Of a stretch of DNA of 14,800 nt, positions 307 to 14,800 are shown in pieces. Both the position numbers and the translations under genes were made by a program. Source of the stretch: a virus (lineage: Duplodnaviria; Heunggongvirae; Uroviricota; Caudoviricetes); the IMG/VR virus record IMGVR_UViG_2617271085_000020, positions 1 to 14,800 of that record; one strand, 5' to 3'. The notes under the pieces are model-generated. The model was not told the DNA's origin. It did no database searches and worked only from the letters and a program-made list of their open reading frames with translations. Every line of letters begins with the position of its first letter. Position 1 is the stretch's first letter.

Positions 307-380
307 GTTGATAAGACGAATATAAGGTTAGATCCTTCGATTAATTAGCTACAATTTTGAATATACGAAAGGAGCATTTC

Positions 381-827
381 GTGGTTTTTGGGAATAGGCA
401 TCAACCTGATACGGAACCAGAAGAGCCTGTAAGTGTGGGGATACCAACAGCTGTTCCCAAGGGGAATTCTGGACGCAAATCATTCTCAAATCTTCGCAGA
501 GAGCTAACTGATGAGGAGCTTAGCTCTGCTGCGGTACAACGAATGTTGCTTGATGAGATTGAAAGATTAGATGGTGAATGCAATGATTTGCGTGTGATTC
601 GCGATAAGTTTCATACATCCGATAAACTTGTAGGAGTATTAGAAGAAAAATTCAAAACAAAAATTGCTTTGGAAATAATGCATGTGACATGTTTTCTAAT
701 TTCAGGCTCTGCCTTTGGATATGCCACTTCAAACTGGTCAACTCAGCCGACTGCCGCTGTGCTCGCGTTAGCTTTTGGTAGTGTGCTCACTGTCGGGGGG
801 ATAGCTGCAAAGGTGGTCAAGCCATGA
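381..827 (+). CDS. Hypothetical protein with a coiled-coil-like N-terminal part and two C-terminal hydrophobic (transmembrane-like) segments
   Basis: The ORF track gives 357..827 from a TTG. GTG at 381 is in the same frame and is preceded by AAAGGAG (368-374) at 6-nt spacing, so it is the more likely start. The C-terminus (IALEIMHVTCFLISGSAFGYA ... TAAVLALAFGSVLTVGGIAAKVV) is hydrophobic. The stop overlaps the next start (ATGA at 824-827). No family recognised. Confidence 0.45.
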   Translation: MVFGNRHQPDTEPEEPVSVGIPTAVPKGNSGRKSFSNLRRELTDEELSSAAVQRMLLDEIERLDGECNDLRVIRDKFHTSDKLVGVLEEKFKTKIALEIMHVTCFLISGSAFGYATSNWSTQPTAAVLALAFGSVLTVGGIAAKVVKP

Positions 828-1180
828 AAGTTAATATTACAGCAATTCGCGAACCTGGAAACTTAGATAAGGAACGAATTGTCATTCGAGTTGACAGTTC
901 ATGCAATATTGGAGAGTTTATACTGCTACAAACGGGATTTGAGAATGAGTCGGTAAACACTGGTATTTACGAAACATTTTGGTTTCCGGATAAACCTGTT
1001 CGCGCTGGCGATCTTGTTGTCGTATATACAAAAGCAGGAAAAAGTAGTGAAAAGAAAAGTAATGATGCAACATCACATTTTTTCTATATAGGGAAAGCGA
1101 TTCCTATTTGGAATAGAAATGAACAAAGCGCGGTACTTATGCATGCACCTGAGTGGCAAAGTTTTCAGGCTGTGCTTTAG
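824..1180 (+). CDS. Hypothetical 118-aa soluble protein, translationally coupled to the upstream ORF
   Basis: ATG at 824 overlaps the upstream TGA (ATGA). The ORF is complete and ends with TAG at 1178-1180. No recognisable motif. Confidence 0.45.
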   Translation: MKVNITAIREPGNLDKERIVIRVDSSCNIGEFILLQTGFENESVNTGIYETFWFPDKPVRAGDLVVVYTKAGKSSEKKSNDATSHFFYIGKAIPIWNRNEQSAVLMHAPEWQSFQAVL

Positions 1181-1250: not shown

Positions 1251-3596
1251 TTACATTTTGCGTCTGTTTCCTGATTGAACAATTGATGTGATAATCTTTT
1301 CTTGCTTCTTGAGTTGTTCAGCAAACCAACGCTGATCAGTCACGTTTCCTTGTACGATTACACGAGCATCAATAGGCTGAGTCTTAGACTCGCTTTGATT
1401 ATTCAAGAAGTCTTTCAAATCTCCGTTAGTTCTCTGATCAACGACTCTTTCACCACCATCAAGCAGCCATGTTCCTTCTCTTGGAATTTCAGAAATGCCA
1501 TCGTGAGCCATACCAGTCATATTCACAGATTTCATGGACATAACTTGTCCTAAAACTTGCGCATAACTTGATGCGGCTAATGCGTATCCCAAAGGACCAG
1601 GATAAGTTGCCATTGCTTTAGTTGCAGATTGATATGCGTTTAACATACCATTTGCGATAGCTGTTCCTTTAGCTACTGCAAACGCAGCTTGAGCGGCTTT
1701 AGAGTTTTCACCCGAAATACCGGAAATAACACCAGCCATGCCTTGAGCAAAACCGTTATACATTCCCATTTTCGTTTGAATTTCCATCATAGCAATATTT
1801 TCAGACTGAACAGAATAAGCCTTGTCTAGTCGTCTTTTTTGCTCTAAAAATTGTTCATGCGACAAAAGTCCAGATTCGTACATTTTCTGATTCTGTTCTC
1901 TGAACCTTTCGAACTGTTGATTTAATGCTTCTTGCTCTAATGCCATTCTTTCTTCATCAGTTGCGAAACCAATTGAATTCAAGTTCTGCATATTCACCTG
2001 ATTAGCATCAATCTCTTTAATTGCTTTCATCTTCTCTTGATGTGCAATTTGGAGATTCTCTAACTGTTCGTTGTATTGCTGTTCTGAAATCAAGTTCTGT
2101 TGACGTTTAATATCCAGTTCTTGCTTTTGAATATCGAACATTTGATTCATCGACTGAGTGATAATGCCAATGTCAGCAGGATTAGCCTTAAGACTGTCGG
2201 AGAATTCTTTTGACGAGTTAATCAATAGAGAATTACGACGTTCTAGGAATTGCTCCTGTGAGATTATCCCTTTGTCTCTTAGTTCTTGAAGCTTTGTTAG
2301 TGCTTGCTGAGTCTGATTAATCTGAGAAGCATATGAACGTCCTTCTTGAGCAATAACCGCAACGTCTAACTGTTTCAGAGATTCAACTGCCTGAGCACGA
2401 TCAGCCATCATTTTGTCATAATCAGCTTTGGCTTTAGCCATTGCAGCTTTACGTTCCCTTTCGGCTTTATCAGCAGCAGATTTTCTTTCACGTTCAGCTT
2501 TATCAGCAGCGTCTTTTTCTTTCTTCGCTTTTTCTTCTAAGACTTTCTGGCGAGCCTTATTTGCCATCGTTTCTTGTTCAGCTAAACGAACTAGCTGATT
2601 AACTTGTTTTTTAAGCAACTTGGCATTTTCTGCAATAAACGCCTGACGCTTTTCAATTTCGATTGCTTCAACAGACTTTCCGATATTCTGCACTTGACCA
2701 GAGGACATACCAGAAGGAGTTATACCCTTTTTGTTATTCTCTCTTAGCCATTTCGCAAAAGACGTTTCACTCCAATCAATACCATCCATCCACTCATAAA
2801 GATTGTTAAATTCACGAACTAATGGACTAGCAGCTTCGACCGTGAATTCATTAGTTGCTTTCTTCAAAGAATTCATGTTTCTTTCATATTCTTTGAATTC
2901 GTCGGCAACGTCTTGAGTAATTGAAACTGTTTGACCTTGAATTGCGTTTAATGCGTCTTGGGTATTAGAAAAATTCTGTAATGTTGAAATCAAATGAGAA
3001 CCATCAGACGCCATTGATTCCATTGCGTTAGTAATTTCAGCAGATGATTTACCAGCGGCTCTTAATTGATAGAACGTGTCGATTAATGCTTTAATACCAC
3101 CTTCGGCATCACCAGCATATTTTGCATAATCTTCAAGTTTTAAACCCCATTCTTCTAAGTCGTCGGCAATACCACCACCGCCAGCTCTCAAAGAATCACC
3201 GAGTTTATCCATTGCGTCTTTGTTTAAATCACCGAATTTCTCAACGTCCATTCCGGTAGCTTTGAACGTTGATTGCAACTGTTGAAGCATTTCAATAGAA
3301 ACGCCAGTTGTTGTGTTAACCTGATTTAATACGTTAACAGTTTCAGCAGCTTTATTAATTGCAGCAAAACCAGCACCTGCAACTAACCCCGCTGCACCCA
3401 ATGCGCGTAACGCAGGGGACATACTTTGAATCGTGCTGAGACCATCGCTGAGACCATTTAGTGGACCTGTGAAATTACTAAAAAGACCCTGAGCGGCTGA
3501 ATCAAGTTTATTCAGTTCGTCCATAGAGTCTTTTACAGCAGTAGACAGTCCTTTATTATCTCCGCGAATCTCAACATCATAACGAGAATTCGCCAT
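1251..3596 (-). CDS. Tail tape measure protein (781 aa)
   Basis: Large, strongly coiled-coil protein (e.g. KAKKEKDAADKAERERKSAADKAERERKAAMAKAK) with Gly/Ala-rich hydrophobic segments near both ends (LRALGAAGLVAGAGFAAI; AFAVAKGTAIANGMLNAYQ ... PGPLGYALAASSYAQVLG). It lies immediately downstream of a G/T chaperone-like ORF pair, with its ATG embedded in TAATAATG at the end of the T ORF. The assignment rests on architecture and context, not on a database hit. Confidence 0.6.
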   Translation of the reverse strand: MANSRYDVEIRGDNKGLSTAVKDSMDELNKLDSAAQGLFSNFTGPLNGLSDGLSTIQSMSPALRALGAAGLVAGAGFAAINKAAETVNVLNQVNTTTGVSIEMLQQLQSTFKATGMDVEKFGDLNKDAMDKLGDSLRAGGGGIADDLEEWGLKLEDYAKYAGDAEGGIKALIDTFYQLRAAGKSSAEITNAMESMASDGSHLISTLQNFSNTQDALNAIQGQTVSITQDVADEFKEYERNMNSLKKATNEFTVEAASPLVREFNNLYEWMDGIDWSETSFAKWLRENNKKGITPSGMSSGQVQNIGKSVEAIEIEKRQAFIAENAKLLKKQVNQLVRLAEQETMANKARQKVLEEKAKKEKDAADKAERERKSAADKAERERKAAMAKAKADYDKMMADRAQAVESLKQLDVAVIAQEGRSYASQINQTQQALTKLQELRDKGIISQEQFLERRNSLLINSSKEFSDSLKANPADIGIITQSMNQMFDIQKQELDIKRQQNLISEQQYNEQLENLQIAHQEKMKAIKEIDANQVNMQNLNSIGFATDEERMALEQEALNQQFERFREQNQKMYESGLLSHEQFLEQKRRLDKAYSVQSENIAMMEIQTKMGMYNGFAQGMAGVISGISGENSKAAQAAFAVAKGTAIANGMLNAYQSATKAMATYPGPLGYALAASSYAQVLGQVMSMKSVNMTGMAHDGISEIPREGTWLLDGGERVVDQRTNGDLKDFLNNQSESKTQPIDARVIVQGNVTDQRWFAEQLKKQEKIITSIVQSGNRRKM
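2448..2510 (-). repeat. Near-tandem 30-nt repeat (two copies, 33-nt period) inside the tape measure gene, encoding AADKAERERK twice
   Basis: Plus-strand copies at 2448-2477 and 2481-2510. The peptide is identical in both copies but three codons differ synonymously (gcc/gct, agg/cgt, cgt/aga). Confidence 0.6.
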
Positions 3597-3598
3597 TA

Positions 3599-3946
3599 TT
3601 ATTTCCTATTTTTAGCTTTTGCTTTCGCAAGAAGTTTCGGGTCGAACATAGATTCCATTTTCTTTCTGTTGGCTTCTGCGGCTTTTTTCTGTTCTTCTTC
3701 CAGTTCTTCAGGAGATTTAAAAACTTTATCCTTGATGAACATGAAATCTTTCAGTTTTAATTTCTTCGAACCTTCTTTTGTAATATTTGGATTATTAGCA
3801 AAAACAGAAAATGCTATATGCGCTTGATGTAAGTCATTTACAGCAGGACCTTGAGGTTCAATGAAAGTTTCATATATCCACAGTTCATAGAAATCCTTAA
3901 TACTCATATCCAGAATTTCACGTTCGGTAAAACCTCTACGCAACAT
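3599..3946 (-). CDS. Tail assembly chaperone T-like ORF, probably expressed as a G-T fusion by -1 frameshift
   Basis: The ORF is in the -1 frame relative to the upstream 98-aa ORF. Its reading frame is open upstream of its own ATG as far as 4093, overlapping the last ~37 codons of the G-like ORF. There is no Shine-Dalgarno sequence in front of its ATG (aaattcagaaccATG). It sits immediately upstream of the tape measure gene and has a basic, Lys-rich C-terminus. Confidence 0.45.
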   Translation of the reverse strand: MLRRGFTEREILDMSIKDFYELWIYETFIEPQGPAVNDLHQAHIAFSVFANNPNITKEGSKKLKLKDFMFIKDKVFKSPEELEEEQKKAAEANRKKMESMFDPKLLAKAKAKNRK

Positions 3947-3981
3947 GGTTCTGAATTTGAATATTTTATAAGGATTCTGCC

Positions 3982-4278
3982 TTAATTCTTTTCCACAGCG
4001 TGAGTTTCTTCTTTCATAACAGAAGCAGCAGAAACAGCAGCAGAAAGTTGAGCGCGAACGGTGGTATAAAGTTGTTTGACTTGTTCGATATTTTCAAAAA
4101 CAGGGGATCCGTCTTCGTTCTCAATGCATTTCAGAATCATATTATCGGTCTGGTCTTCCATAAAAAAGAATTTACCAAATTCTTCAACGGTCATTGCGCG
4201 AACATAAAATTTAAAACCTTTGATTTCTACAACTTCTCGTTTTGCTCCGAGAGCGGCGATCATTTCTTCGAATTTCAT
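3982..4278 (-). CDS. Tail assembly chaperone G-like protein (98 aa)
   Basis: Small acidic ORF directly upstream of the T-like ORF and tape measure gene, preceded by an AGGA ribosome-binding site. This is the canonical G / GT / TMP arrangement of long-tailed phages. Confidence 0.45.
   Translation of the reverse strand: MKFEEMIAALGAKREVVEIKGFKFYVRAMTVEEFGKFFFMEDQTDNMILKCIENEDGSPVFENIEQVKQLYTTVRAQLSAAVSAASVMKEETHAVEKN
3988..3994 (-). promoter_or_regulatory. Candidate -1 ribosomal slip site G GAA AAG near the end of the G-like ORF
   Basis: mRNA reads ...gct gtg gaa aag aat taa. A -1 shift at GAA-AAG would read GGA-AAA and continue in the open T frame. The heptamer is not a canonical X XXY YYZ motif, so the exact site is uncertain; the shift could occur anywhere in 3985-4093. 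Confidence 0.2.
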
Positions 4279-4323
4279 TTCTTAATCCTATAGTTAATTT
4301 AAATGTTTACTTTATTTATGCCG

Positions 4324-4356
4324 AAAAAGGAGCTATCACGAAGATAACTCCTTTTG
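4324..4356 (-). terminator. Stem-loop (8-bp AAAAGGAG/CTCCTTTT stem with inner 4-bp TATC/GATA stem) between the 106-aa gene and the G-like gene; possible terminator or attenuator
   Basis: Inverted repeat read directly from the sequence. The U-run forms part of the stem, so terminator strength is uncertain. It is followed on the minus strand by cATAAATAaag, which resembles but does not match a T4 late promoter (TATAAATA). Confidence 0.3.
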
Positions 4357-4357
4357 A

Positions 4358-4678
4358 TTACTCGATGAATTGGAAGAAATATCCAATCATTCTGAATCCT
4401 TTATGAATATATTCTTGCTGAAAAATACAAACAGCATTTTGTTCAAAGAAAGGACCATTGATTTCTACGATTTCATTATTCTTGAAATGATAACGAGGTT
4501 TCTTTTTCTGAGTGCTAACAATAAAAACGTTTTGGTCGTTTTGAAGATTCCTTTTTATACGAGTTTCTTTCACCAGTTCAAAGCTATAAGGAATAGTCAT
4601 CGACTCTGGATTGTGCTCTTTGATAAAAATAGAATCGAGTTCGTCAACACGATATGTTTCAAAATCATTTAAGTTCAT
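4358..4678 (-). CDS. Hypothetical protein (106 aa from the ATG at 4678)
   Basis: The ORF track begins at 4711, but the ATG at 4678 is preceded by a strong ribosome-binding site (aaAAGGAGAcaaaATG) and avoids overlap with the upstream gene. No family recognised. Confidence 0.5.
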   Translation of the reverse strand: MNLNDFETYRVDELDSIFIKEHNPESMTIPYSFELVKETRIKRNLQNDQNVFIVSTQKKKPRYHFKNNEIVEINGPFFEQNAVCIFQQEYIHKGFRMIGYFFQFIE

Positions 4679-4694
4679 TTTGTCTCCTTTTCTT

Positions 4695-5234
4695 TTATTT
4701 AGTAGCAACACGACGAACCGTTTTTATGATGTCATTACCAATATCAGTCCAAGAACCAATAGATTTCTTACGAGTTTGATGACGTTTGAAAATAGCAATA
4801 ACTCTTTTGTTCTGTTTTTTAACATTTGTCTTAATCAGAATCGTTCTGTTAATACCATCTTTCTTTTGTTTGACTGCCTCTAGGTTTCTACGAGTTTTTA
4901 ATCCTGGAATGTTACCGAACTGGTTAGTCGAACCTCTTACCCCTGTTGGAACATATTTGTTAATCGGACTGTTATCATCTATCAAGTGTGAAAGATAATT
5001 CGCCTGAACGTCTTTGATAAAGATTCTGTTAGTTGTTCCTTCTTTATCAATCTTAAATCTGAACCCAACGGCGTTCTTGGTGAAATTCACAGGTCCTTCA
5101 ACACGTCGATTAATCTTTCGTTGTAACTCAACAGAAGCGAGTTTAGACGCTTTAGTTACTCTTTTAGAGAACTGATCAGATTCTTTTATTCGCCATTTGT
5201 CTAAGTCTTTTTTAACTCCACCAAGTTTCGCCAT
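4695..5234 (-). CDS. Hypothetical highly basic (Lys/Arg-rich) 179-aa protein without cysteine
   Basis: Complete ORF whose start overlaps the stop of the upstream 70-aa ORF at 5234. The composition suggests a nucleic-acid-binding or internal virion protein. No family recognised. Confidence 0.45.
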   Translation of the reverse strand: MAKLGGVKKDLDKWRIKESDQFSKRVTKASKLASVELQRKINRRVEGPVNFTKNAVGFRFKIDKEGTTNRIFIKDVQANYLSHLIDDNSPINKYVPTGVRGSTNQFGNIPGLKTRRNLEAVKQKKDGINRTILIKTNVKKQNKRVIAIFKRHQTRKKSIGSWTDIGNDIIKTVRRVATK

Positions 5235-5446
5235 TACATACTCCCAAATGAAACAATTGCAAAGATATATTTCATAGCTTCATCAAGAGGAACGATAGGA
5301 AGAACTATTCCGAAGAAACTCAATGCACACGGAACAACGATGTAATTATAAACAGCCATTGCAATCATCGCGTAAATGAATTTCTTTTTAAAGTCCCCTG
5401 TCATTGCTGGAAGTTTCTTGAATGCAGCTTTCATTTTTTCAATCAT
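5234..5446 (-). CDS. Small hydrophobic membrane protein (70 aa), holin-like in size and topology
   Basis: Basic N-terminus (MIEKMKAAFKKLPAMTGDFKKK) followed by two to three hydrophobic segments. It overlaps the end of the nuclease gene by 8 nt. It lacks the charged C-terminal tail typical of holins, so the holin call is tentative. Confidence 0.4.
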   Translation of the reverse strand: MIEKMKAAFKKLPAMTGDFKKKFIYAMIAMAVYNYIVVPCALSFFGIVLPIVPLDEAMKYIFAIVSFGSM

Positions 5447-5894
5447 ACTTCACCTTTAAATTTTGTTTGTACAAGTTAATGAGAGATTTTTTATCACCAA
5501 CTGGATTTATGTCCTCTGCTAATAAAGTCTCTTTCATTTGCTTTAACGTCATTTTCGAAAAGCGCTTTGATAGGTCTGTTACAAGTTGAGGATGAATAGG
5601 ATTTTTAGAATTATCTTTTTCGAGATAAGTTACCAATCTTTTTAAAAAATCAATATATTCGATGTGCTTCGCTAAACCTGAATACATGAATTGATGTTTT
5701 AATCTGCCCTCAAGGACGTTTGCCTGTGCGAGTAATAATCCTCGGCATCGTCCAGCTTGAGAACCATCAAGAGCGTGGTCATGGTCTAAATGGGCTTTAT
5801 TAACATCGGTAATTTCTATCCCAGTTAAAGCACATCTTTTATTTTGTTTATCAAAAAGGGTTTTCTTGTAATTATTTATTTCTTTTCGTTTCAC
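5439..5894 (-). CDS. Endonuclease VII-like (T4 gp49 family) junction-resolving nuclease, 151 aa, GTG start
   Basis: The motif KAHLDHDHALDGSQAGRCRGLLLAQANVLEGRLKHQF aligns with the T4 Endo VII catalytic core (ANHLDHDHELNGPKAGKVRGLLCNLCNAAEGQMKHKF, recalled from memory). The downstream ...VTYLEKDNSKNPIHPQLV matches ...LTYLKSDYTQNNIHPNFV. The catalytic Asp/His/His/Asn/Glu positions are conserved. Confidence 0.6.
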   Translation of the reverse strand: MKRKEINNYKKTLFDKQNKRCALTGIEITDVNKAHLDHDHALDGSQAGRCRGLLLAQANVLEGRLKHQFMYSGLAKHIEYIDFLKRLVTYLEKDNSKNPIHPQLVTDLSKRFSKMTLKQMKETLLAEDINPVGDKKSLINLYKQNLKVKYD

Positions 5895-6168
5895 TGTCTA
5901 TCACCGCTAATCGAATTTCGATTTCTCTAATTCGATTGTCTATACTTTTCATATCACCTTTAAACTCCTTAAACGAATCACGAACGTTGGTTAATTCAGT
6001 ATTTGCGTTTGAATCGGTCGCACTATTAAGAGCAACGCTTTTCTCGATTTCAGATAGTCTCTGTTCGATTTTTAAAGCGTCGGCTTCCATTGCGTTCTTT
6101 TGAGACCAAATCCATCCAAAGCCAGCGCATAGCAGTCCCGCGAAAGAAATGATGGCTTCAACACCCAT
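5872..6168 (-). CDS. Membrane-anchored coiled-coil protein (98 aa): one N-terminal transmembrane segment then a coiled coil; possible spanin, holin or antiholin-like protein
   Basis: N-terminus MGVEAIISFAGLLCAGFGWIW is hydrophobic; the remainder is heptad-like and charged (EADALKIEQRLSEIEKS ... IREIEIRLAVIDSE). Preceded by an AAGGAG ribosome-binding site. Function not established. Confidence 0.4.
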   Translation of the reverse strand: MGVEAIISFAGLLCAGFGWIWSQKNAMEADALKIEQRLSEIEKSVALNSATDSNANTELTNVRDSFKEFKGDMKSIDNRIREIEIRLAVIDSETKRNK

Positions 6169-6229
6169 TTTCTTTCTCCTTTTAAGACCTCCATGTCTTA
6201 TTTAGAAAAACGGATTTGGGGGAAAGAAA

Positions 6230-9200
6230 TCAAACTTTACTGATAAAATAAACTGCCCTTGAGGCTTCTGCTCGGTTTAATTCGACCGTATAAGTTAAAT
6301 CAACAGCTTGTCCCGCTTCGATGTATGCGACACCACCGTTTGAACCGTTTAGAGATTGAGATTGAACGTAAACAACTTCTTGGCCGTTTGAGAGTCTTAA
6401 CCACGCTTTGCCACCACCCCAACCAGTACCACCAGAATAAGTTCTTCCGGCGATTGCAACGTTAGGAATAGCAATCATTCTTCTCCAACCAACAGCAGGA
6501 ATATGAACAGATCCCCACGGATCGACAAATCCCATTTTGATAACGTCACCTTCGATTCTGTCAGCGTAAACAGTCCCTGTGAAATAACCAGAACCACCTC
6601 TGATTTCTCCTGAGAAATAACCAGAATCAGCTTGAATATTTCCTTTAACTGTAACGTTTTGGAATGAAGCCCAACCATCTTTTCTAATTGTCCATCCTTG
6701 AGTACCACCGGAAGGAACCCAGTTATCAGAGGATATTTCCCAGGCAATTTGTGCTGAACCGATTTGAGCATTACCAATTTTCGCTGTTGTAATAGCACCG
6801 TCTTGAATCTGCGCGTTATTAATTGCAGCATTAGCAATTTTGGCATTATCAATTGCAGCATTAGCAATTTGAGCATTACCGATCGAAGCATTGCGAATCA
6901 TCGCGCTTTGTAAATAAACTCTATCATCTGCGACCATGAACGGTGGAACAGCATTAGGAGCAGTGTTATTATTTGTTATAGCAATCTTATCAGCGTTAAA
7001 AATAATGCTTGAGGCTTTATTTCCCGCAGCGTCCTTAGATGCCAACATACTAATACCAGCTACGACACCATCGGCGTTTGTAGAAACAGCCCATTTACTG
7101 TTAACAGTTCCTGCTAAATCGTCAACGCTTGCTTTTGCTTCGGTAGAAACAGTCGCGACCATATCCGTAGTTTCAGCTTTTAATTGGCTGATTTGTGAAG
7201 CTGTTGCAGCACGATCATCCGCTTGGGTTTTCTCAACTTCGGTTATAGCAGAGTTTAACTTACCGTCAAAATCAGCCGTTTGAATCGTAATAGCCTGATT
7301 GATAGCGCCTTGCGTTTCATTCGTTATCTGAGTATGCAACGTTGTATTAGACGTGCTGATCTTCTGATCAATCTCGGTTGTTACTTCCTGCTTAGTTGAT
7401 GTTATCTGAGTATCGGTATAAGCATTTGCGAGTTCTAAAGCGTCCTCGATAGCACCATCAACTCGTTGGTCTAAATCAAGCAAGTCGTTTAACTGGTCTT
7501 TCATATCTTCTGTCCATGGAATATCCCATTTCATGTTGATATAAACTGATTCAGTCCAAACTAATTGGTCTTGTCCGAAAACGTCATACCATGCAGCTCG
7601 AACATAATATTCACCGTCAACTAACGGGAAGTTTTCAATGAACTGGCTAGAACTCAACTGAACTTGATTAATGTCAGTGAATTCAGGATTATTTGAAACT
7701 TGAATAACAGTTCCAGAATAATCAGGTGCAACACTCATTGGATCGTTCCAAGAACACATCAATAATCCAGGACCATTCGAAGCAGTAAAACCGATTATTG
7801 CAGGAGCTTGATTATTTCTTACGATTAATTCAGTAGGTTCAGATCTTAAACCTGAATAACCAACAGCAGTGATTTCAAATTTAATTTCACGACTGATACC
7901 GTTTTGCTGGTTCATTCGTAAATCATAAATGAAGCTCAAATCTTTAGTTCTGTATACAACAGGTCTTTGTCCAGTGATTTTGATTTCGTAATACTGAAAT
8001 ACTTGTTCGAAAGTCTGTTGAACGCCGTCAACTTCGAATTTCTCTGAACTCTGATTATCCCATGCAAATTCAAATTGCGTTTGTTGCGTAACGTTGTTAT
8101 TAAACTCAGAGTTAACAAGTCTTAGACCACGAACTTTAGGCAGATTATAAACGACATCAGGGTTAACATTCATTGAATAAACCCATTCAGACGTATAGAA
8201 AACACCAGAAGCACAAACACGAATATCATATTTCTGCAATGGGTCCATGTTCATAATCAAGTAAGAATTTCCTGATGTGAATCCTGCTTGAGTCCATTGG
8301 TTTGTTCCTGCAACTGCATATTGAATATAAAAACCTGAACGGTTAAAATCTTGCTCTGAATTCCATGAAACTTTAAAAGTTCTTCCTAAAGCTGTTTCTG
8401 AAACGCTTGAAACTTTAAGATTCGTAGGAGCAATCAAGTATCCTTTGTTTGGTACGTTTGAACCGTTGTTATTAGGATCTTTCGCATAGTCTAAATCGGT
8501 ATAAACTTCTTCAATATATTCAGTAGCTGTGATGTTAACGATACCAGCAACGCCCTTATTCATTGAACGACTAACGTTAGTAACGCGCCATAACGAATCT
8601 TGCAAATTTAATTCATCAAAGTTAACTCTGATAACATCCCAAACTTGAATAGTATAGGAATCAGGAGAACTAAAGCTGATAATCTGTTTTAACAGTGATT
8701 TGTTACGTTCGATTGAAGCAAGTTTGTCCAATTGGTCTTTAGATTTCACAAAACGATAATTAACATCTTTCGCGATAATACGTTTATCATATTGAATTGT
8801 TTTGTCGGTCGTCACGTCAGATGGATAACGAAGAACTTGCTCGGAATAATCGATTGCAGGATCTTGATATTTCACGTTCAGCGTATTGTAATATTCCTCT
8901 GAACCACCTGAATTCAACGAAACTGAACCAGCAGAAATATTTTCTTCATCGAAATCAAATGAAACAACATCAGGACCATCGATTTTGCAATAAACTTGTC
9001 CGAATGATTCGAAAATCATTCCGTTAAAAGCACCTGCAAGCTGAGTTAAGTTTTCTTTAAACGTTGCGTTAGGGTCTGTTGCACCATCGGAAAATAGTTG
9101 ATTGCTTAAAGCATAATTTGCAGCAGCTTTAAAACTATCAAGGTTAATTTTATCAAGTGAAACTCCTAATCCGTATCGTTCGTTCGTCAGATAATCGACA

Positions 9201-9910
9201 ATCTGACTTGCACCGTTGCGAGATGGAACGATTTGTCCCGTGTTTAAGTCAGTAATCAAACGTCCTCTAACATCAACAGCGACCTGACTGTTAGGTTGTA
9301 GGATATCAGCTTGGTTTTGTAAGTCTGAATTTCGTTTCTGCATTACGATACAGCAAGAAGCGACACCGTTACCTGTAGCAGAAACAGGCCAGCCACTTGG
9401 GTCATTTCCTAAGTATTGTTCAGCAAGTTTGAAATGATGACCTTGTTCTTTACCAACAGAGAATTCAACTTGCACATAGTCTTGATATTGAGAAACGATT
9501 GAACCTCTTGAAACAATTCCATCACGATAAACGGCATCATTCAGAATACGCTTGTTATCGATATAAAGGTTTTTAAAGCTATCAACTTCACCTTCGGCAA
9601 TTGCAAAAATTTGCACCAAATAAGTCGTATCATTTCCTACAGCATCCCAAACGTTAATTGTTCCTGTGCGTTGTTCACCGTAGATAATCGGTAATACAGT
9701 TGAAGGATCAGACGTTGTTCCTAATGTTGTTGCGGTATCACTTGTATTAAATCGAGGAACAGTTGGTTGCATAGCTGTTGACATTAAAGCGGAAACAGCA
9801 GCAACAGCAACACCAATACCGATTGAAATAGCTAATGCCATCCCAGCGGCATAAGCAGCAAGACCAGCAGAAGCACCAGCGATGATTGCACCAATTGCGA
9901 CAATAGCCAT
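6230..9910 (-). CDS. Central tail fibre / host specificity protein, lambda gpJ-like, with an N-terminal gpI C-domain-like segment (1226 aa)
   Basis: The N-terminal 90 aa (hydrophobic Gly/Ala-rich stretch then ...STVLPIIYGEQRTGTINVWDAV) resemble the lambda gpI C-terminus (...NVLPVLYGEMRVGSRVVSQ). The remainder has fibronectin-III-like segments and a C-terminal region like lambda J (PPFMVADDRVYLQSAMIRNASIGNAQI ... GEIRGG ... DRIEGDVIK versus PMFVAQGNQIFMNDVFL ... TLRAEKIVGDIV). Lambda sequences are recalled from memory. Confidence 0.75.
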   Translation of the reverse strand: MAIVAIGAIIAGASAGLAAYAAGMALAISIGIGVAVAAVSALMSTAMQPTVPRFNTSDTATTLGTTSDPSTVLPIIYGEQRTGTINVWDAVGNDTTYLVQIFAIAEGEVDSFKNLYIDNKRILNDAVYRDGIVSRGSIVSQYQDYVQVEFSVGKEQGHHFKLAEQYLGNDPSGWPVSATGNGVASCCIVMQKRNSDLQNQADILQPNSQVAVDVRGRLITDLNTGQIVPSRNGASQIVDYLTNERYGLGVSLDKINLDSFKAAANYALSNQLFSDGATDPNATFKENLTQLAGAFNGMIFESFGQVYCKIDGPDVVSFDFDEENISAGSVSLNSGGSEEYYNTLNVKYQDPAIDYSEQVLRYPSDVTTDKTIQYDKRIIAKDVNYRFVKSKDQLDKLASIERNKSLLKQIISFSSPDSYTIQVWDVIRVNFDELNLQDSLWRVTNVSRSMNKGVAGIVNITATEYIEEVYTDLDYAKDPNNNGSNVPNKGYLIAPTNLKVSSVSETALGRTFKVSWNSEQDFNRSGFYIQYAVAGTNQWTQAGFTSGNSYLIMNMDPLQKYDIRVCASGVFYTSEWVYSMNVNPDVVYNLPKVRGLRLVNSEFNNNVTQQTQFEFAWDNQSSEKFEVDGVQQTFEQVFQYYEIKITGQRPVVYRTKDLSFIYDLRMNQQNGISREIKFEITAVGYSGLRSEPTELIVRNNQAPAIIGFTASNGPGLLMCSWNDPMSVAPDYSGTVIQVSNNPEFTDINQVQLSSSQFIENFPLVDGEYYVRAAWYDVFGQDQLVWTESVYINMKWDIPWTEDMKDQLNDLLDLDQRVDGAIEDALELANAYTDTQITSTKQEVTTEIDQKISTSNTTLHTQITNETQGAINQAITIQTADFDGKLNSAITEVEKTQADDRAATASQISQLKAETTDMVATVSTEAKASVDDLAGTVNSKWAVSTNADGVVAGISMLASKDAAGNKASSIIFNADKIAITNNNTAPNAVPPFMVADDRVYLQSAMIRNASIGNAQIANAAIDNAKIANAAINNAQIQDGAITTAKIGNAQIGSAQIAWEISSDNWVPSGGTQGWTIRKDGWASFQNVTVKGNIQADSGYFSGEIRGGSGYFTGTVYADRIEGDVIKMGFVDPWGSVHIPAVGWRRMIAIPNVAIAGRTYSGGTGWGGGKAWLRLSNGQEVVYVQSQSLNGSNGGVAYIEAGQAVDLTYTVELNRAEASRAVYFISKV
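6816..6875 (-). repeat. Tandem 30-bp direct repeat (two copies, about 27/30 identical) in the J-like gene, encoding the N-A-x-I peptide repeat region
   Basis: The 20-mer aattgcagcattagcaattt occurs at 6821-6840 and again at 6851-6870 with similar flanks. The protein here reads IANAAIDNAKIANAAINNAQI. Confidence 0.6.
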
Positions 9911-10326
9911 TATTTTCTCCTGTTAAAAATTAATTCGTATTCAAAATCTTTTACGTTTATCAAAGCGTATTTGTTGTTGTGTTCAATAATTGCTTTGTCG
10001 TTAAAGACAATCGACGCAACGTAATAAACTCGGCGTCTGTATGTTTTTTTAATTAAGACAATTGACCCTGTTTCGATAATGTTTGATTTTTCGAAATGCT
10101 TTTCACAAGCTTCTAAAACGTTATTAAAACCTGTAAGTTCTTTGCAGTGTTTTAAACCCGATTGAACAGAGTCATATTTGGAAATAAGTTTGCTTGCGTA
10201 ATCTGTTCCGCAAGTCATATCGATATATTCAGCGACAAGGATATTACAGTCGTTTTGACCGTATTTGTGTTCTTTGTTGATATAACGATTTAATAATTTT
10301 GATAAGTCAGCTTGAAATTTAAACAT
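9910..10326 (-). CDS. Lambda gpK-like tail assembly protein, NlpC/P60 (papain-like) domain only
   Basis: The motif KYGQNDCNILVAEYID resembles the lambda K catalytic-Cys region (HGVTDCYTLFRDAY), with a downstream His (IIEHNN). The stop overlaps the J-like start (TAATG at 9908-9912). The likely start is the ATG at 10326 (ribosome-binding site GAGGTG); the ORF track starts at GTG 10338. There is no JAB/MPN half. Confidence 0.45.
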   Translation of the reverse strand: MFKFQADLSKLLNRYINKEHKYGQNDCNILVAEYIDMTCGTDYASKLISKYDSVQSGLKHCKELTGFNNVLEACEKHFEKSNIIETGSIVLIKKTYRRRVYYVASIVFNDKAIIEHNNKYALINVKDFEYELIFNRRK

Positions 10327-10360
10327 TTTAAGATTCACCTCTGACTTTATTTAGAGCCAA

Positions 10361-10386
10361 AAAAAGACCCCGTTAGGAGTCTTTTA
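10361..10386 (-). terminator. Rho-independent terminator on the minus strand (AAAAGACUCC-UAAC-GGGGUCUUUU followed by UUU)
   Basis: On the minus-strand RNA the stem includes one G-U wobble pair and is followed by a U7 run. On the plus strand the same stem has a C-A mismatch, so it is oriented for the minus strand. It sits 20 nt after the 162-aa gene stop and directly before the gpK-like ribosome-binding site. Confidence 0.6.
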
Positions 10387-10405
10387 AGATTGAACAATAA
10401 AACGA

Positions 10406-10894
10406 TTAGCCTTCTGGAGTTGGAGCAGTCAAATCAACCAAAGCTTCGGCAATTGGACCACCATCAACACTCAGAGTCATAGCCTGTGCAGCAACTTCTG
10501 ATTCACCACCGGAATAAGTAGCGCTTGACAGGAAACCGTTATACATTTTTGCAACACCGATTTCTTTAGAAGCATCCATCCAATAAACGATTTTGAACTG
10601 ACCACGTTTACCATCTTCCGCAAGCTTATAAAGCTGATCATGAATAGACCCAGGAATATAGTTAACAGTCAAATCGATATCAGGAACAGAACCACGACCA
10701 ACCAGTTTACGGCTGTATTTGTGAGTAAAGTTAGGAGCAACGATTACCTCACGTTCGATACCAGTCGTAGGAAATGCGCCAACTTCAGGAACTTCTACGA
10801 ATTTCTCTGAGTCGATATCTTTGTTCAATACGTCAGAGTTGAAAAATACACTGACGTAAGAGCCAGCGAAAATATCATATGCTTTATCAGCCAT
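10406..10894 (-). CDS. Probable abundant virion structural protein (162 aa), possibly a major tail / tube-like protein
   Basis: Complete ORF with an AGGA ribosome-binding site, flanked by a stable hairpin upstream and a strong terminator downstream, which suggests high expression relative to neighbours. A loose resemblance to small siphovirus tail tube proteins (...KLAEDGKRGQFKIVYW...) is from memory only. Confidence 0.3.
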   Translation of the reverse strand: MADKAYDIFAGSYVSVFFNSDVLNKDIDSEKFVEVPEVGAFPTTGIEREVIVAPNFTHKYSRKLVGRGSVPDIDLTVNYIPGSIHDQLYKLAEDGKRGQFKIVYWMDASKEIGVAKMYNGFLSSATYSGGESEVAAQAMTLSVDGGPIAEALVDLTAPTPEG

Positions 10895-10936
10895 TTTAAA
10901 TATCCTTTATTAAGTAATAACGTTATTATTTAGATG

Positions 10937-10956
10937 AAAGGGACTTTCGTCCCTTT
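10937..10956. other. Perfect 8-bp hairpin (AAAGGGAC / GTCCCTTT) in the fibre to 162-aa intergenic region; GAAA tetraloop on the minus-strand RNA
   Basis: Read directly from the sequence. On the plus strand it is followed by a T-rich tract (terminator-like for antisense transcription). On the minus strand it lies upstream of the 162-aa gene and could be an mRNA processing or stability element. Confidence 0.3.
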
Positions 10957-10959
10957 TTA

Positions 10960-13815: not shown

Positions 13816-13867
13816 TTCATTCTCCTGTTGAAAAATAACATCCTTGTTATTTAATTAATCAAATTTT

Positions 13868-14800
13868 TTAGAATGTTCCGGCGTCTAACGTTTCACCTTG
13901 AGCTACTGCGTTAACATCAACAGGAGTTGGTTTATTCGTAGGAGAATAAACTTCTTGACCTTTGACTTTCACCGAATCAGATTGAATTTCTTTAGTATTT
14001 AGATTGTCGATTTCAACAAGCGGGGCGTTTATCTTTTTGCGTACAGTCAAATAATCCTGAATCGTCAGTGAACCTTGTAACGTTCCTCCCGTAATAGGAA
14101 GCGCTCCAATGTCTTCTGTTGTAGGACGTTCAAGTTCTGTATAGACCTTAACCCAATTCGATTCATTGATTGTCCCGTCGGGATTCATCTGCTTGTTACG
14201 AATACGTATGCTAGGATTACCGATACTTGCTCCAATCAGTTCCCATCCTTGACCACTTGGATGCTGAATTGCCATAGCAGACGTGCCAGAGTTATATGGA
14301 TTATCAGTGTTAACCCCATCAACAGTTATCCATCTGTTACCAGTCAAAAGACCTAAATCTTTTACACCTTCGATTTCTTCTGTTCCTGCACCAACACCAT
14401 AATCGCCAACGTTTAACGGAGTTGAATACTCAGCGTAACCTGAAAATAATTTACCGTCTGGACTTAAAGTATAGTTGTTAATTACAGCGGAACTCTCAGA
14501 CCCGTTTGTTTCTTTCTTCGTAACATAAGCATCAAAGATATGATAAAGACCGGATTGTCTTTCTCTTGTATGTTCTGAATCGACAACATAAAGATTTCTA
14601 AATCGAAGTTTTTTCTTATTCATTAACGCATTGTCTAACAATTCGGAAACTTCATCATCAGATTCAAATATGCTTAAAACAGTGTTATCAATTGTTTGAT
14701 CACCTGATAATTTAACTTCAAAATCTTCTCGATAATCTTCGAGTGATTGAACTTGATTTGAAAATCCTATTACCGGAAAAGCAGCAACATTTTCAGTTTC
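13868..14800 (-). CDS. Tail fibre protein, 5'-truncated by the window edge (C-terminal 310 codons present)
   Basis: The frame is open from the stop at 13868 to position 14800 with no stop codon, so the ORF-track start (TTG at 14641) is only an internal codon. The C-terminal motif TEDIGALPITGGTLQGSLTIQDYL resembles T4 proximal-fibre (gp34) C-terminal motifs (SDIGALPSDNATMGNLTIRDFL, from memory). Confidence 0.6.
   Translation of the reverse strand, partial: ETENVAAFPVIGFSNQVQSLEDYREDFEVKLSGDQTIDNTVLSIFESDDEVSELLDNALMNKKKLRFRNLYVVDSEHTRERQSGLYHIFDAYVTKKETNGSESSAVINNYTLSPDGKLFSGYAEYSTPLNVGDYGVGAGTEEIEGVKDLGLLTGNRWITVDGVNTDNPYNSGTSAMAIQHPSGQGWELIGASIGNPSIRIRNKQMNPDGTINESNWVKVYTELERPTTEDIGALPITGGTLQGSLTIQDYLTVRKKINAPLVEIDNLNTKEIQSDSVKVKGQEVYSPTNKPTPVDVNAVAQGETLDAGTF

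What the first reader, a model, noticed from the sequence alone, without database searches (positions are those of the whole stretch)
3599..4278. G / GT-type tail chaperone pair with programmed -1 frameshift geometry but no canonical slippery heptamer
The T ORF is in the -1 frame, is open for ~37 codons overlapping the 3' end of G, and has no ribosome-binding site of its own. This argues it is made only as a G-T fusion. Yet no X XXY YYZ heptamer exists in the overlap. The best candidate is G GAA AAG at 3988-3994, two codons before the G stop. This could be a non-standard shift site.
Basis: partly seen in the sequence, partly recalled or inferred. Interest (0 to 1): 0.45.

Follow-up and report, generated by a model that had tools for sequence, protein, structure and literature searches.

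The report
Tail chaperone frameshift, non-standard slip site
An E. coli prophage very likely makes its second tail-assembly chaperone by letting a few ribosomes slip back one base at G GAA AAG; only the lysine codon of this site fits the textbook rule, and the site recurs in all relatives found, so it is a real but modest variation on a well-known phage trick.

Summary
All genes are on the minus strand.

- **Gene pair.** G (4278..3982, 98 aa) and T (-1 frame, to 3599) lie directly upstream of the tape-measure gene. They match phage tail-chaperone families.
- **No canonical site.** G contains no in-frame X_XXY_YYZ heptamer. The only credible slip site is G_GAA_AAG (3994..3988).
- **Conservation.** 45 distinct related G-T sequences were tabulated, and each has exactly one in-frame A_AAG, 0-10 codons before the G stop. 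The preceding codon varies (GAA, GUA, AAA, UUA). The lysine codon is AAG in 13 of 13 lineages, against 24% AAG among other lysine codons.
- **Fusion is the conserved product.** Predicted fusion proteins align without gaps across the junction. The peptide between the slip site and the window's ATG 3946 is conserved. That Met is Ile in several relatives, has no ribosome-binding site, and sits inside a predicted stem.
- **Mechanism (inferred).** E. coli's single tRNA-Lys slips from AAG to AAA, giving a 226-aa GT fusion.
- **Hairpin.** An 87-nt hairpin (3977..3891) starts 10 nt downstream. It is the most stable GC-adjusted structure in the window. It is lineage-specific, so its role as a stimulator is plausible but unproven.

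The mechanism class is known (IS1222, IS3-family tetramer sites). This is a new member of a known kind.

The parts
3982..4278 (-). Gene G, tail assembly chaperone, 98 aa (ATG 4278, stop TAA 3984..3982)
   Evidence: ORF. phrog_344 'tail assembly chaperone' E=2.4e-6. Pfam Phage_TAC_13 at 18.4 bits is below the 28.8 cut-off, but 11 of 13 relatives match it at E<=0.01, best 8e-7. RBS AGGA, dG -4.0.
3988..3994 (-). Proposed -1 shift site G_GAA_AAG. The invariant core A_AAG is 3991..3988. Zero-frame context is GTG GAA AAG AAT TAA.
   Evidence: It is the only usable in-frame slippery tetramer in the overlap. Exactly one in-frame A_AAG is present in each of 45 distinct related G-T sequences, and also in L067-69, L104 and L109. 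The slip lysine is AAG in 13 of 13 lineages, against 24% AAG elsewhere.
3599..3991 (-). T portion read in the -1 frame after the slip: AAA 3991..3989, then GAA 3988..3986, through to stop TAA 3601..3599. GT fusion = join(4278..3988, 3988..3602), 226 aa, junction ...HAVEK|ELRQNPYK...
   Evidence: phrog_337 'tail protein' E=1.2e-8. Pfam Phage_tail_T at 21.9 bits is below the 25.9 cut-off, and 7 of 13 relatives match at E<=0.01. Fusions align without gaps through the junction. The 13 codons after the slip are open and 52% identical in the -1 frame in 8 of 8 lineages, while the other two frames carry stops.
3944..3946 (-). ATG that opens the mechanical 'T ORF'. Interpreted as an internal Met codon, not a start.
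   Evidence: No SD (dG +0.2). Base-paired in stem 4 of the hairpin. The homologous residue is Ile in L002, L004, L014, DCP80 and L109. The first ATG after the slip falls at codon 5 to 78 depending on lineage. Gene callers disagree on the start on identical DNA: 115 aa versus 102 aa.
3891..3977 (-). Predicted 87-nt extended RNA hairpin (35 bp in five stems), starting 10 nt 3' of the heptamer. The G stop codon lies in the spacer. Candidate frameshift stimulator.
   Evidence: MFE -31.1 kcal/mol; z=-6.7 for the element and -4.9 in a 108-nt context, with 0 of 200 shuffles as stable. Lowest GC-adjusted MFE of 2942 windows on the minus strand. Synonymous recoding null -12.8 +/- 3.0, z=-6.0, 0 of 2000. 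Not conserved as a consensus structure.
1251..3596 (-). Tape measure protein gene, 781 aa, immediately downstream of T
   Evidence: phrog_13674 'tail length tape measure protein' E=9e-62. tblastn hits to annotated tape-measure genes.

Best explanation
This is a lambda-type G/GT tail assembly chaperone pair in an Escherichia coli prophage.

Most ribosomes translate G (98 aa) and stop at TAA 3984..3982. A minority shift -1 at G_GAA_AAG (3994..3988). E. coli's only lysine tRNA (anticodon mnm5s2UUU) detaches from AAG and re-pairs with the overlapping AAA. Translation then continues with GAA UUA AGG CAG... and yields a 226-aa GT fusion (...HAVEK-ELRQNPYK...).

The tRNA-Glu on the preceding GAA cannot re-pair properly on GGA (second-position G:U). 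The event is therefore essentially single-tRNA slippage of the known NNA_AAG 'hexanucleotide' or Z_ZZN 'tetramer' type, not tandem slippage.

Because such sites are weak on their own, the 87-nt hairpin that begins 10 nt downstream probably raises the yield by stalling the ribosome near the site.

By analogy with lambda, G and the G part of GT coat the tape-measure protein, and the T part recruits the major tail protein.

Shown here: geometry, conservation of the site, conservation of the fusion peptide, absence of a start signal, and the predicted hairpin.
Inferred: that slippage occurs, which tRNA moves, the role of the hairpin, and the protein function.
For: 1. **Family and position.** phrog_344 and phrog_337 hits, with TMP immediately downstream. 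Pfam TAC_13 and Phage_tail_T hits recur across relatives.
2. **Frame.** T is in the -1 frame in every relative, including the distant phage DCP80.
3. **One site each.** Each of 45 distinct G-T sequences has exactly one in-frame A_AAG in the overlap. The overlap is often only 3-8 codons, which pins the site. Heptamers are GGAAAAG, AGAAAAG, GGTAAAG, AAAAAAG and TTTAAAG.
4. **Synonymous constraint.** The slip lysine is AAG in 13 of 13 lineages, against 24% of 287 other lysine codons. The product of per-lineage frequencies is 2e-9, although the lineages are not fully independent.
5. **Fusion conserved.** Fusions align without gaps. The slip lysine sits at alignment column 109, 110 or 112. The linker E-[LIV]-[KR]-x-N-P is thus encoded in the T frame here but in the G frame in the E. 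coli GGTAAAG clade. That only makes sense if the fusion is the selected product.
6. **Frame-specific conservation.** The -1 frame is open and conserved right after the site, and closed by stops just before it, in relatives.
7. **No independent start.** ATG 3946 has no SD, is not conserved and is base-paired.
8. **Host.** The window is 100% identical over 10,278 nt to a locus whose flank is 100% identical to E. coli ldtB-ybiR. E. coli has a single tRNA-Lys, which makes A_AAG shift-prone (PMC5009743).
9. **Hairpin.**. In E. coli, tetramer sites are near background alone, but A_AAG reaches up to 5.6% with a 3' stimulator (PMC4066793).
Against: - No direct evidence of the fusion protein exists.
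- The exact sequence AUG GAA AAG was used in a reconstituted E. coli system as the 'unfavourable' control and gave mainly 0-frame product without a stimulator (PMC6924986).
- The hairpin is not conserved. RNAalifold finds no consensus on 9 or 6 sequences.
- Several lineages with the same non-canonical heptamers show no excess structure: L011, L013, L067 and L018.
- The 80%-identical E. coli PSS-15 prophage has a different fold.
- The 9-10 nt spacer is longer than the usual 5-8 nt (PMC4066793).
- Pfam hits for the window's own G and T are below the curated thresholds.
- hhalign against lambda T and G is weak or null.
Confidence: 0.82

Rival explanations
1. T is made on its own, by initiation at ATG 3946 (or ATG 3907). 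No frameshift is needed, and the overlap is an accident.
For: An ATG exists, and gene callers use it or the next ATG. A Met at this position is present in several lineages: L011, L013, L015 and the GGTAAAG clade.
Against: - No SD (dG +0.2), and the ATG is buried in a stem.
- The position is Ile in L002, L004, L014, DCP80 and L109.
- In L004 the first ATG is 78 codons downstream of the slip.
- The 13 residues upstream of this Met are conserved in the -1 frame in 8 of 8 lineages.
- The A_AAG site and its AAG codon are under synonymous constraint.
Confidence: 0.06
2. T is expressed by termination-reinitiation. Ribosomes that finish G at TAA 3984..3982 resume at a nearby downstream start without an SD.
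For: The G stop and ATG 3946 are only 36 nt apart. Coupled restart without an SD is known in bacteria (general knowledge).
Against: As for independent initiation, the start is not conserved and the upstream peptide is conserved. This model also does not explain the invariant in-frame A_AAG.
Confidence: 0.04
3. The shift happens elsewhere in the 37-codon overlap, for example at A_AAT (4093..4090).
For: A_AAT is an in-frame Z_ZZN tetramer just inside the open -1 frame.
Against: - The resulting 35 residues (KYRTSQTTLYHRSRSTFCCCFCCFCYERRNSRCG...) are not conserved.
- The -1 frame there carries stops in 7 of 8 related lineages.
- A_AAT is not among the six tetramers that rose at least fourfold above background in E. 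coli, even with a pseudoknot (PMC4066793).
Confidence: 0.02
4. The frameshift is real, but the hairpin 3977..3891 is not a stimulator. It may instead hide the internal ATGs 3946 and 3907 so that free T is not made, or act on mRNA stability or processing. The shift then runs at the low intrinsic level of the site.
For: - The hairpin is lineage-specific and has no consensus structure.
- The spacer is 9-10 nt rather than 5-8 nt.
- Lambda-type G-T shifting is reported to need no stimulator (PMC5009743).
- Both internal ATGs lie inside stems.
Against: - It is the most stable GC-adjusted structure among 2942 windows and lies right after the shift site.
- Codon choice is tuned to it (z=-6.0).
- Tetramer-type sites are near background without a stimulator in E. 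coli.
- Non-canonical lineages tend to negative z while the three canonical-heptamer lineages sit near 0, although n is small.
Confidence: 0.35

Closest known systems
Phage lambda gpG / gpGT tail assembly chaperones (-1 frameshift at G_GGA_AAG)
   Same: - Two small ORFs directly upstream of the tape-measure gene, with the second in the -1 frame.
- The shift occurs at a Lys AAG codon a few codons before the G stop. Lambda has GCG GGA AAG five codons before the stop; the window has GTG GAA AAG, with AAG two codons before the stop.
- The T part gives weak Pfam Phage_tail_T hits.
- The lambda heptamer differs from the window's by one base.
   Different: - The P-site codon is GAA, not GGA, so tRNA-Glu cannot re-pair cognately and the site is not X_XXY_YYZ.
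- A large hairpin follows the site, whereas lambda-type shifting is described as stimulator-free.
- Sequence similarity to lambda G and T is marginal or absent.
- The gene just upstream is not the major tail protein gene.
Hexanucleotide/tetranucleotide -1 sites: IS1222 G_CGA_AAG, Bacillus subtilis cdd A_CGA_AAG, A_AAG tetramer sites in IS1/IS3 families
   Same: - Only the A-site tRNA-Lys can re-pair (AAG to AAA), and the 5' codon merely ends in A.
- The host is E. coli, with a single tRNA-Lys.
- Such sites depend on a 3' stimulator for useful yield (PMC5009743; PMC4066793).
   Different: - The 5' codons are different (GAA, GUA).
- The gene class is different: a phage tail chaperone rather than a transposase.
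- The putative stimulator is a long imperfect hairpin with a 9-10 nt spacer, and it has not been tested.
E. coli dnaX A_AAA_AAG frameshift
   Same: tRNA-Lys slippage on AAG in E. coli, with a downstream stem-loop.
   Different: dnaX has a fully slippery heptamer, an upstream SD-like stimulator, a 6-nt spacer (my recollection) and about 50% efficiency (PMC5009743; the reference title states 50%). Here no SD-like element was seen upstream, and a low yield is expected.
The in-vitro 'less slippery' control mRNA AUG GAA AAG (Peng et al. 2019)
   Same: It has the identical heptamer G_GAA_AAG, translated by E. coli ribosomes (PMC6924986).
   Different: There it lacked any structure and gave mainly 0-frame product. 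Here it is a conserved natural site followed by a hairpin.

Membership tests
Lambda-type G/GT tail assembly chaperone pair | Two small co-oriented ORFs immediately upstream of the tape-measure protein gene | tested here: met
   G is 4278..3982, T runs to 3599, and TMP starts at 3596. TMP matches phrog_13674 at E=9e-62.
Lambda-type G/GT tail assembly chaperone pair | The second ORF is in the -1 frame, overlaps the 3' end of the first, and has no start signal of its own | tested here: met
   Frame and overlap. SD dG is +0.2. The ATG is not conserved.
Lambda-type G/GT tail assembly chaperone pair | Sequence membership in tail assembly chaperone families | tested here: met
   phrog_344 'tail assembly chaperone' E=2.4e-6 and phrog_337 'tail protein' E=1.2e-8.
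Lambda-type G/GT tail assembly chaperone pair | Pfam Phage_TAC_13 / Phage_tail_T above the curated threshold | tested here: inconclusive
   The window proteins score 18.4 bits (cut-off 28.8) and 21.9 bits (cut-off 25.9). 11 of 13 G and 7 of 13 T relatives hit at E<=0.01. hhalign against lambda T gives E=0.029 and against lambda G gives nothing.
Lambda-type G/GT tail assembly chaperone pair | Canonical X_XXY_YYZ slippery heptamer in the overlap | tested here: not met
   There is none in the overlap or in the whole of G. Relatives L015, L048 and L104 (A_AAA_AAG) and DCP80 (T_TTA_AAG) do have one at or near the same position.
Lambda-type G/GT tail assembly chaperone pair | Pair located between the major tail protein gene and the tape-measure gene | tested here: not met
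   The ORF upstream of G is an unassigned 117-aa ORF. The only major-tail-like gene (10406..10894, phrog_158 E=1e-12) lies about 6 kb upstream, beyond a J-like tail tip gene.
Lambda-type G/GT tail assembly chaperone pair | A G-T fusion protein is made at a few per cent of G and is needed for tail assembly | not testable with these tools
   This needs a reporter assay, mass spectrometry or phage genetics.
NNA_AAG / Z_ZZN single-tRNA -1 frameshift sites (IS1222 type) | In-frame A_AAG whose Lys tRNA can re-pair on AAA, conserved among homologues | tested here: met
   A_AAG is at 3991..3988. Exactly one is present in each of 45 distinct sequences. The codon is AAG in 13 of 13 lineages, against 24% background.
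NNA_AAG / Z_ZZN single-tRNA -1 frameshift sites (IS1222 type) | Host decodes AAA and AAG with a single tRNA-Lys (mnm5s2UUU) | tested here: met
   The host was identified as E. coli. The window is 100% identical to L052, whose flank is 100% identical to E. coli ldtB-ybiR. The tRNA property comes from the literature (PMC5009743).
NNA_AAG / Z_ZZN single-tRNA -1 frameshift sites (IS1222 type) | 3' stimulatory RNA structure starting about 5-8 nt after the motif | tested here: inconclusive
   A strong predicted hairpin is present. Its spacer is 9-10 nt, and it is not conserved across lineages.

The most novel reading that the evidence does not exclude
A small family of enterobacterial prophage tail chaperones runs its essential G-GT frameshift on the A_AAG tetramer alone, by single tRNA-Lys slippage, with the upstream codon free to drift (GAA, GUA, AAA, UUA) and the site free to migrate by whole codons along a conserved linker. 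Each lineage then makes up for the weak site with a different local pausing device: a stop codon immediately after AAG in some, and a newly evolved hairpin in others. In the window the 10-nt spacer would place the hairpin so that it acts when AAG is in the P site. If so, the heptamer that ribosome biochemists use as a 'non-slippery' control is a natural programmed site.
Probability: 0.3. Interest if true: 0.55.

Novelty: new member of a known kind. Interest (0 to 1): 0.38.

Why it matters
**Annotation.** In every annotated record examined, G and T are annotated separately. They are called 'hypothetical protein', and in one case G is called 'cytochrome'. T is truncated at an arbitrary ATG. Tools that look only for X_XXY_YYZ will miss this site, as they will miss the GGTAAAG clade found in 50 of 5426 complete E. 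coli genomes.

**Biology.** The family is a compact natural series in a tractable host (E. coli). Within one homologous gene pair it spans canonical sites (A_AAA_AAG, U_UUA_AAG) and non-canonical sites (G_GAA_AAG, A_GAA_AAG, G_GUA_AAG), with and without downstream structure or an adjacent stop codon. That makes questions about P-site re-pairing and stimulators in low-level -1 frameshifting directly testable. It does not change the known picture of tail assembly.

Tried and rejected
- **blastn of the G-T region against phage genomes:** no match.
- **Word-indexed protein search with the fusion:** no hit.
- **Exact-peptide scan of viral contigs with T:** nothing. Relatives were reached only through alignments.
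- **Genome-contig scans:** both found nothing.
- **RNAalifold on 9 and on 6 sequences:** I therefore do not claim a family-wide stimulator.
- **Rfam on 3700..4450:** no frameshift element.
- **'Adjacent stop or hairpin' as alternative stimulators:** the trend exists, but L013 and L067 are exceptions and the lineages are few and related. It is kept only as the novel reading.
- **Upstream SD-like stimulator:** none seen by eye in the window. The GAGGT in the L018 clade is not conserved in L016 or L041.
- **Transcriptional slippage:** rejected for the window, because four A's is too short a run (general knowledge).
- **Structure prediction:** single-sequence AlphaFold2 of G gave pLDDT 62.6, and Foldseek against the PDB gave no hit with E<=0.001.
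- **PDB sequence search with G and T profiles:** nothing meaningful.
- **hhalign against lambda G and T:** null and weak respectively.
- **Exhaustive phmmer search with T:** only 20 representatives, all 40-130 aa, so no natural in-frame G-T fusion supports the join.
- **Literature search for GGAAAAG:** no phage precedent, but it did find the in-vitro control mRNA.
Full report
**1. What is in the sequence**

All relevant genes are on the minus strand. G runs from ATG 4278 to TAA 3984..3982 (98 aa). A second ORF runs from ATG 3946 to TAA 3601..3599 (115 aa). A 781-aa ORF starts at 3596.

The second ORF is in the -1 frame relative to G. That frame is open back to 4093, giving 37 codons of overlap.

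A scan of every in-frame position found no X_XXY_YYZ heptamer in the overlap or anywhere in G. Three in-frame Z_ZZN tetramers lie in the overlap:
- T_TTT at 4099, which is useless because the -1 frame hits TGA at 4096..4094.
- A_AAT at 4093.
- A_AAG at 3991..3988, inside GGAAAAG (3994..3988). The zero-frame context is GTG GAA AAG AAT TAA.

ATG 3946 has no Shine-Dalgarno. Its best anti-SD duplex is +0.2 kcal/mol, against -4.0 to -8.7 for the other ATG-initiated genes in the window.

**2. What the genes are**

- G matches PHROG 344 'tail assembly chaperone' (E=2.4e-6).
- T matches PHROG 337 'tail protein' (E=1.2e-8).
- The downstream ORF matches tape-measure families (E=9e-62).
- Pfam gives sub-threshold hits to Phage_TAC_13 for G and Phage_tail_T (lambda gpT) for T.
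- Those Pfam hits recur in 11 of 13 G relatives and 7 of 13 T relatives.
- Direct profile comparison with lambda T is weak (E=0.029) and with lambda G is null.
- A single-sequence structure model of G was too poor to use.

The pair is therefore a G/T chaperone pair by family match and by position upstream of the tape-measure gene. It is only distantly related to lambda's.

**3. Host**

The G protein occurs unchanged in many assemblies (index entries in 532 blocks). The window is 100% identical over 10,278 nt to one of them, L052. The flank of L052 is 100% identical to E. coli ldtB-ybiR.

The same prophage also sits next to ldtB in another enterobacterium whose flank is about 80% identical to E. 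coli. The element has about 38% GC and its host flank about 53%.

Experimental data from E. coli therefore apply directly.

**4. Comparative test of the shift site**

Relatives were collected from these sources:
- phage DCP80;
- viral and metagenome contigs;
- one complete E. coli genome.

T is in the -1 frame in all of them. In 45 distinct G-T DNA sequences there is exactly one in-frame A_AAG in the overlap, 0-10 codons before the G stop. The overlap is often only 3-8 codons, which leaves no other candidate.

| Zero-frame context | Lineages |
|---|---|
| GTG/TCG/CTG/ACG GAA AAG | window, L006, L002, L011/12, L014, L067-69, L109 |
| ACA/ATA GAA AAG | L004/5/7, L013 |
| GAG/TCG GTA AAG | a clade found in 50 of 5426 complete E. 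coli genomes |
| GAA AAA AAG | L015, L048, L104; canonical A_AAA_AAG |
| AGT TTA AAG | DCP80; canonical U_UUA_AAG |

The invariant is A_AAG, not the heptamer. The base before the P-site codon is G or A, and the P-site codon is GAA, GUA, AAA or UUA.

The slip lysine is AAG in 13 of 13 lineages, although AAG is only 24% of the other 287 lysine codons in these genes. The product of per-lineage frequencies is 2e-9, and the lineages are not fully independent. In-frame A_AAG occurs at only 4 of 1300 other G codons.

**5. Evidence that the fusion is the selected product**

Conceptual fusions made at A_AAG align end to end without gaps at the junction.

The slip lysine falls at alignment column 109 (window type), 110 (L015) or 112 (GGTAAAG clade, DCP80). 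The conserved linker E-[LIV]-[KR]-x-N-P is therefore read in the T frame in the window but in the G frame in the E. coli clade. This is hard to explain unless the joined protein is what selection sees.

In the 13 codons after the site, the -1 frame is open and 52% identical on average in 8 of 8 lineages, while the other two frames carry stops. In the 13 codons before the site, the -1 frame carries stops in 7 of 8 lineages. The window's 37-codon overlap is therefore incidental.

The Met encoded by ATG 3946 occupies a conserved hydrophobic position. It is Ile in L002, L004, L014, DCP80 and the 80%-identical E. coli PSS-15 prophage. The first ATG after the site lies anywhere from codon 5 to codon 78. 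Gene callers disagree on the T start on identical DNA.

An exhaustive search found only 20 representative T homologues, all 40-130 aa. There is no natural in-frame fusion to add support.

**6. Mechanism**

The established background is as follows.
- The minimal -1 motif is Z_ZZN.
- A_AAG is the best tetramer in E. coli, because the sole tRNA-Lys pairs weakly with AAG and better with AAA.
- NNA_AAG 'hexanucleotide' sites are used by IS1222 (G_CGA_AAG), and A_AAG tetramers are common in IS1/IS3 elements.
- P-site variants G_GA and G_GU are known intermediates (PMC5009743; PMC4066793).

In E. coli reporters, tetramers without a stimulator are at background (0.147% versus 0.112%). With a strong 3' pseudoknot, A_AAG reaches up to 5.6%.

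The very heptamer G_GAA_AAG has been used in a reconstituted E. coli system as the unfavourable control. tRNA-Glu would face a second-position mismatch on GGA, and the mRNA gave mainly 0-frame product (PMC6924986).

I infer single tRNA-Lys slippage at 3991..3988. The shift could occur with AAG in the A site, during its translocation, or in the P site. The protein product is the same in each case: 97 residues of G joined to 129 residues of T, 226 aa in all.

**7. The hairpin**

Downstream of the site the window has a striking predicted structure. Residues 3977..3891 fold into an 87-nt hairpin of five stacked stems (35 bp).
- MFE is -31.1 kcal/mol. The z-score is -6.7 for the element and -4.9 in a 108-nt context, and 0 of 200 shuffles fold as well.
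- It has the lowest GC-adjusted folding energy of 2942 windows across the whole minus strand.
- It is far more stable than 2000 synonymous recodings of the same peptide (-12.8 +/- 3.0, z=-6.0).
- It begins 10 nt after the heptamer, with the G stop codon in the spacer, and it buries ATG 3946 and ATG 3907.

Arguments against a family-wide stimulator:
- RNAalifold finds no consensus structure.
- The variant L006 keeps only the lower stems, with z=-4.0.
- Sister lineages show weaker and differently built folds: L002 -2.45, L014 -2.4, L109 -2.4, L004 -1.7.
- L011, L013, L067 and L018 show none.

The three canonical-heptamer lineages all sit near z=0, while most non-canonical ones are negative. Lineages with a stop codon right after AAG tend to lack structure. 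The sample is small and has exceptions, so this remains a hypothesis.

The 9-10 nt spacer is longer than the usual 5-8 nt. It would suit a ribosome with AAG in the P site, which is an inference.

**8. Comparison with what is known, and novelty**

Functionally and positionally this is a lambda-type G/GT system. Lambda's site, GCG GGA AAG five codons before the stop, differs from the window's by one base.

It fails the 'canonical heptamer' feature. It fits the IS1222-type single-tRNA class instead.

Non-canonical motifs in tail chaperone overlaps have also been catalogued computationally, for example PRFect's 'twofour' class (PMC10885494). My reading of that class name is that it would cover GGAAAA.

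I rate this a new member of a known kind. The site is real and conserved, and the mechanism class is already described. The useful outcomes are corrected annotation and an experimentally convenient natural series in E. coli.

**9. Verdict**

| Item | Assessment |
|---|---|
| Observation | confirmed |
| Confidence in a programmed -1 shift at G_GAA_AAG producing a GT fusion | about 0.8 |
| Confidence that the hairpin stimulates the shift | about 0.5-0.6 |
| Interest | modest |

Noticed in passing
window 4321..4357 (minus strand), between the 117-aa ORF and G: There is a terminator-like hairpin, AAAAGGAGUUAUC-UUCG-UGAUAGCUCCUUUUU, followed by CGG. It lies just after the stop of the upstream ORF and about 45 nt before the G start. 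It ranks among the lowest GC-adjusted folding energies in the window, but the simple terminator scan did not flag it. L002 has a different GC-rich hairpin plus U-run at the equivalent place, so a transcription stop or attenuator ahead of G-T-TMP may be conserved.
   Followed up: partly
window 1251..14641 (minus strand): The tail gene order is unusual. It runs: fibre genes, a major-tail-like gene (10406..10894), DUF6950, and a 1226-aa J-like tail tip protein (6230..9910). Small ORFs including an endonuclease VII gene come next, and only then G, T and the tape-measure gene. The tape-measure gene is the last tail gene before the prophage end near ldtB. In lambda-like phages J follows the tape-measure gene.
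   Followed up: no
window 5439..5894 (minus strand): A T4 endonuclease VII-like gene (Pfam Endonuclease_7 E=8e-11, plus the dimerisation domain) sits inside the tail module and overlaps its neighbours. It was not called in one otherwise identical locus, L052.
   Followed up: no
window 357..1180 (plus strand): Two overlapping ORFs (156 and 118 aa) lie on the opposite strand between the tape-measure gene and the host ldtB junction, a position typical of prophage-end cargo genes. They have no Pfam or PADLOC match.
   Followed up: partly
L103 1480..1500 versus L104: Two near-identical metagenomic relatives differ by one base at the shift region. L104 has TTC GAA AAA AAG (canonical A_AAA_AAG). L103 has TTC TAA AAA AAG, so G stops before the slippery run. 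This could be a defective copy, a sequencing error, or a different way of reaching the T frame.
   Followed up: no
L109 (NZ_AP027709.1, 3378206..3378900): In the E. coli PSS-15 chromosome, RefSeq names the G homologue 'cytochrome'. It starts the T homologue at a downstream ATG, which removes about 25 conserved residues. The GGTAAAG-clade genes in 50 complete E. coli genomes are all 'hypothetical protein'.
   Followed up: partly
L018-type loci, e.g. L018 2984..3001; L033 about 2990..3005: In the E. coli GGTAAAG clade, the codon pair homologous to the window's GAA AAG is GAA AAC (in L033, GAA AAA), three codons upstream of the GTA AAG site and still inside the open overlap. This looks like a relic or second weak site and suggests how the shift site moved. 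L016 and L041 have GAA GAA there.
   Followed up: no
It carries a siphovirus-style G/T/tape-measure cassette with a canonical T_TTA_AAG site, and all of these genes are annotated 'hypothetical protein'.
   Followed up: no
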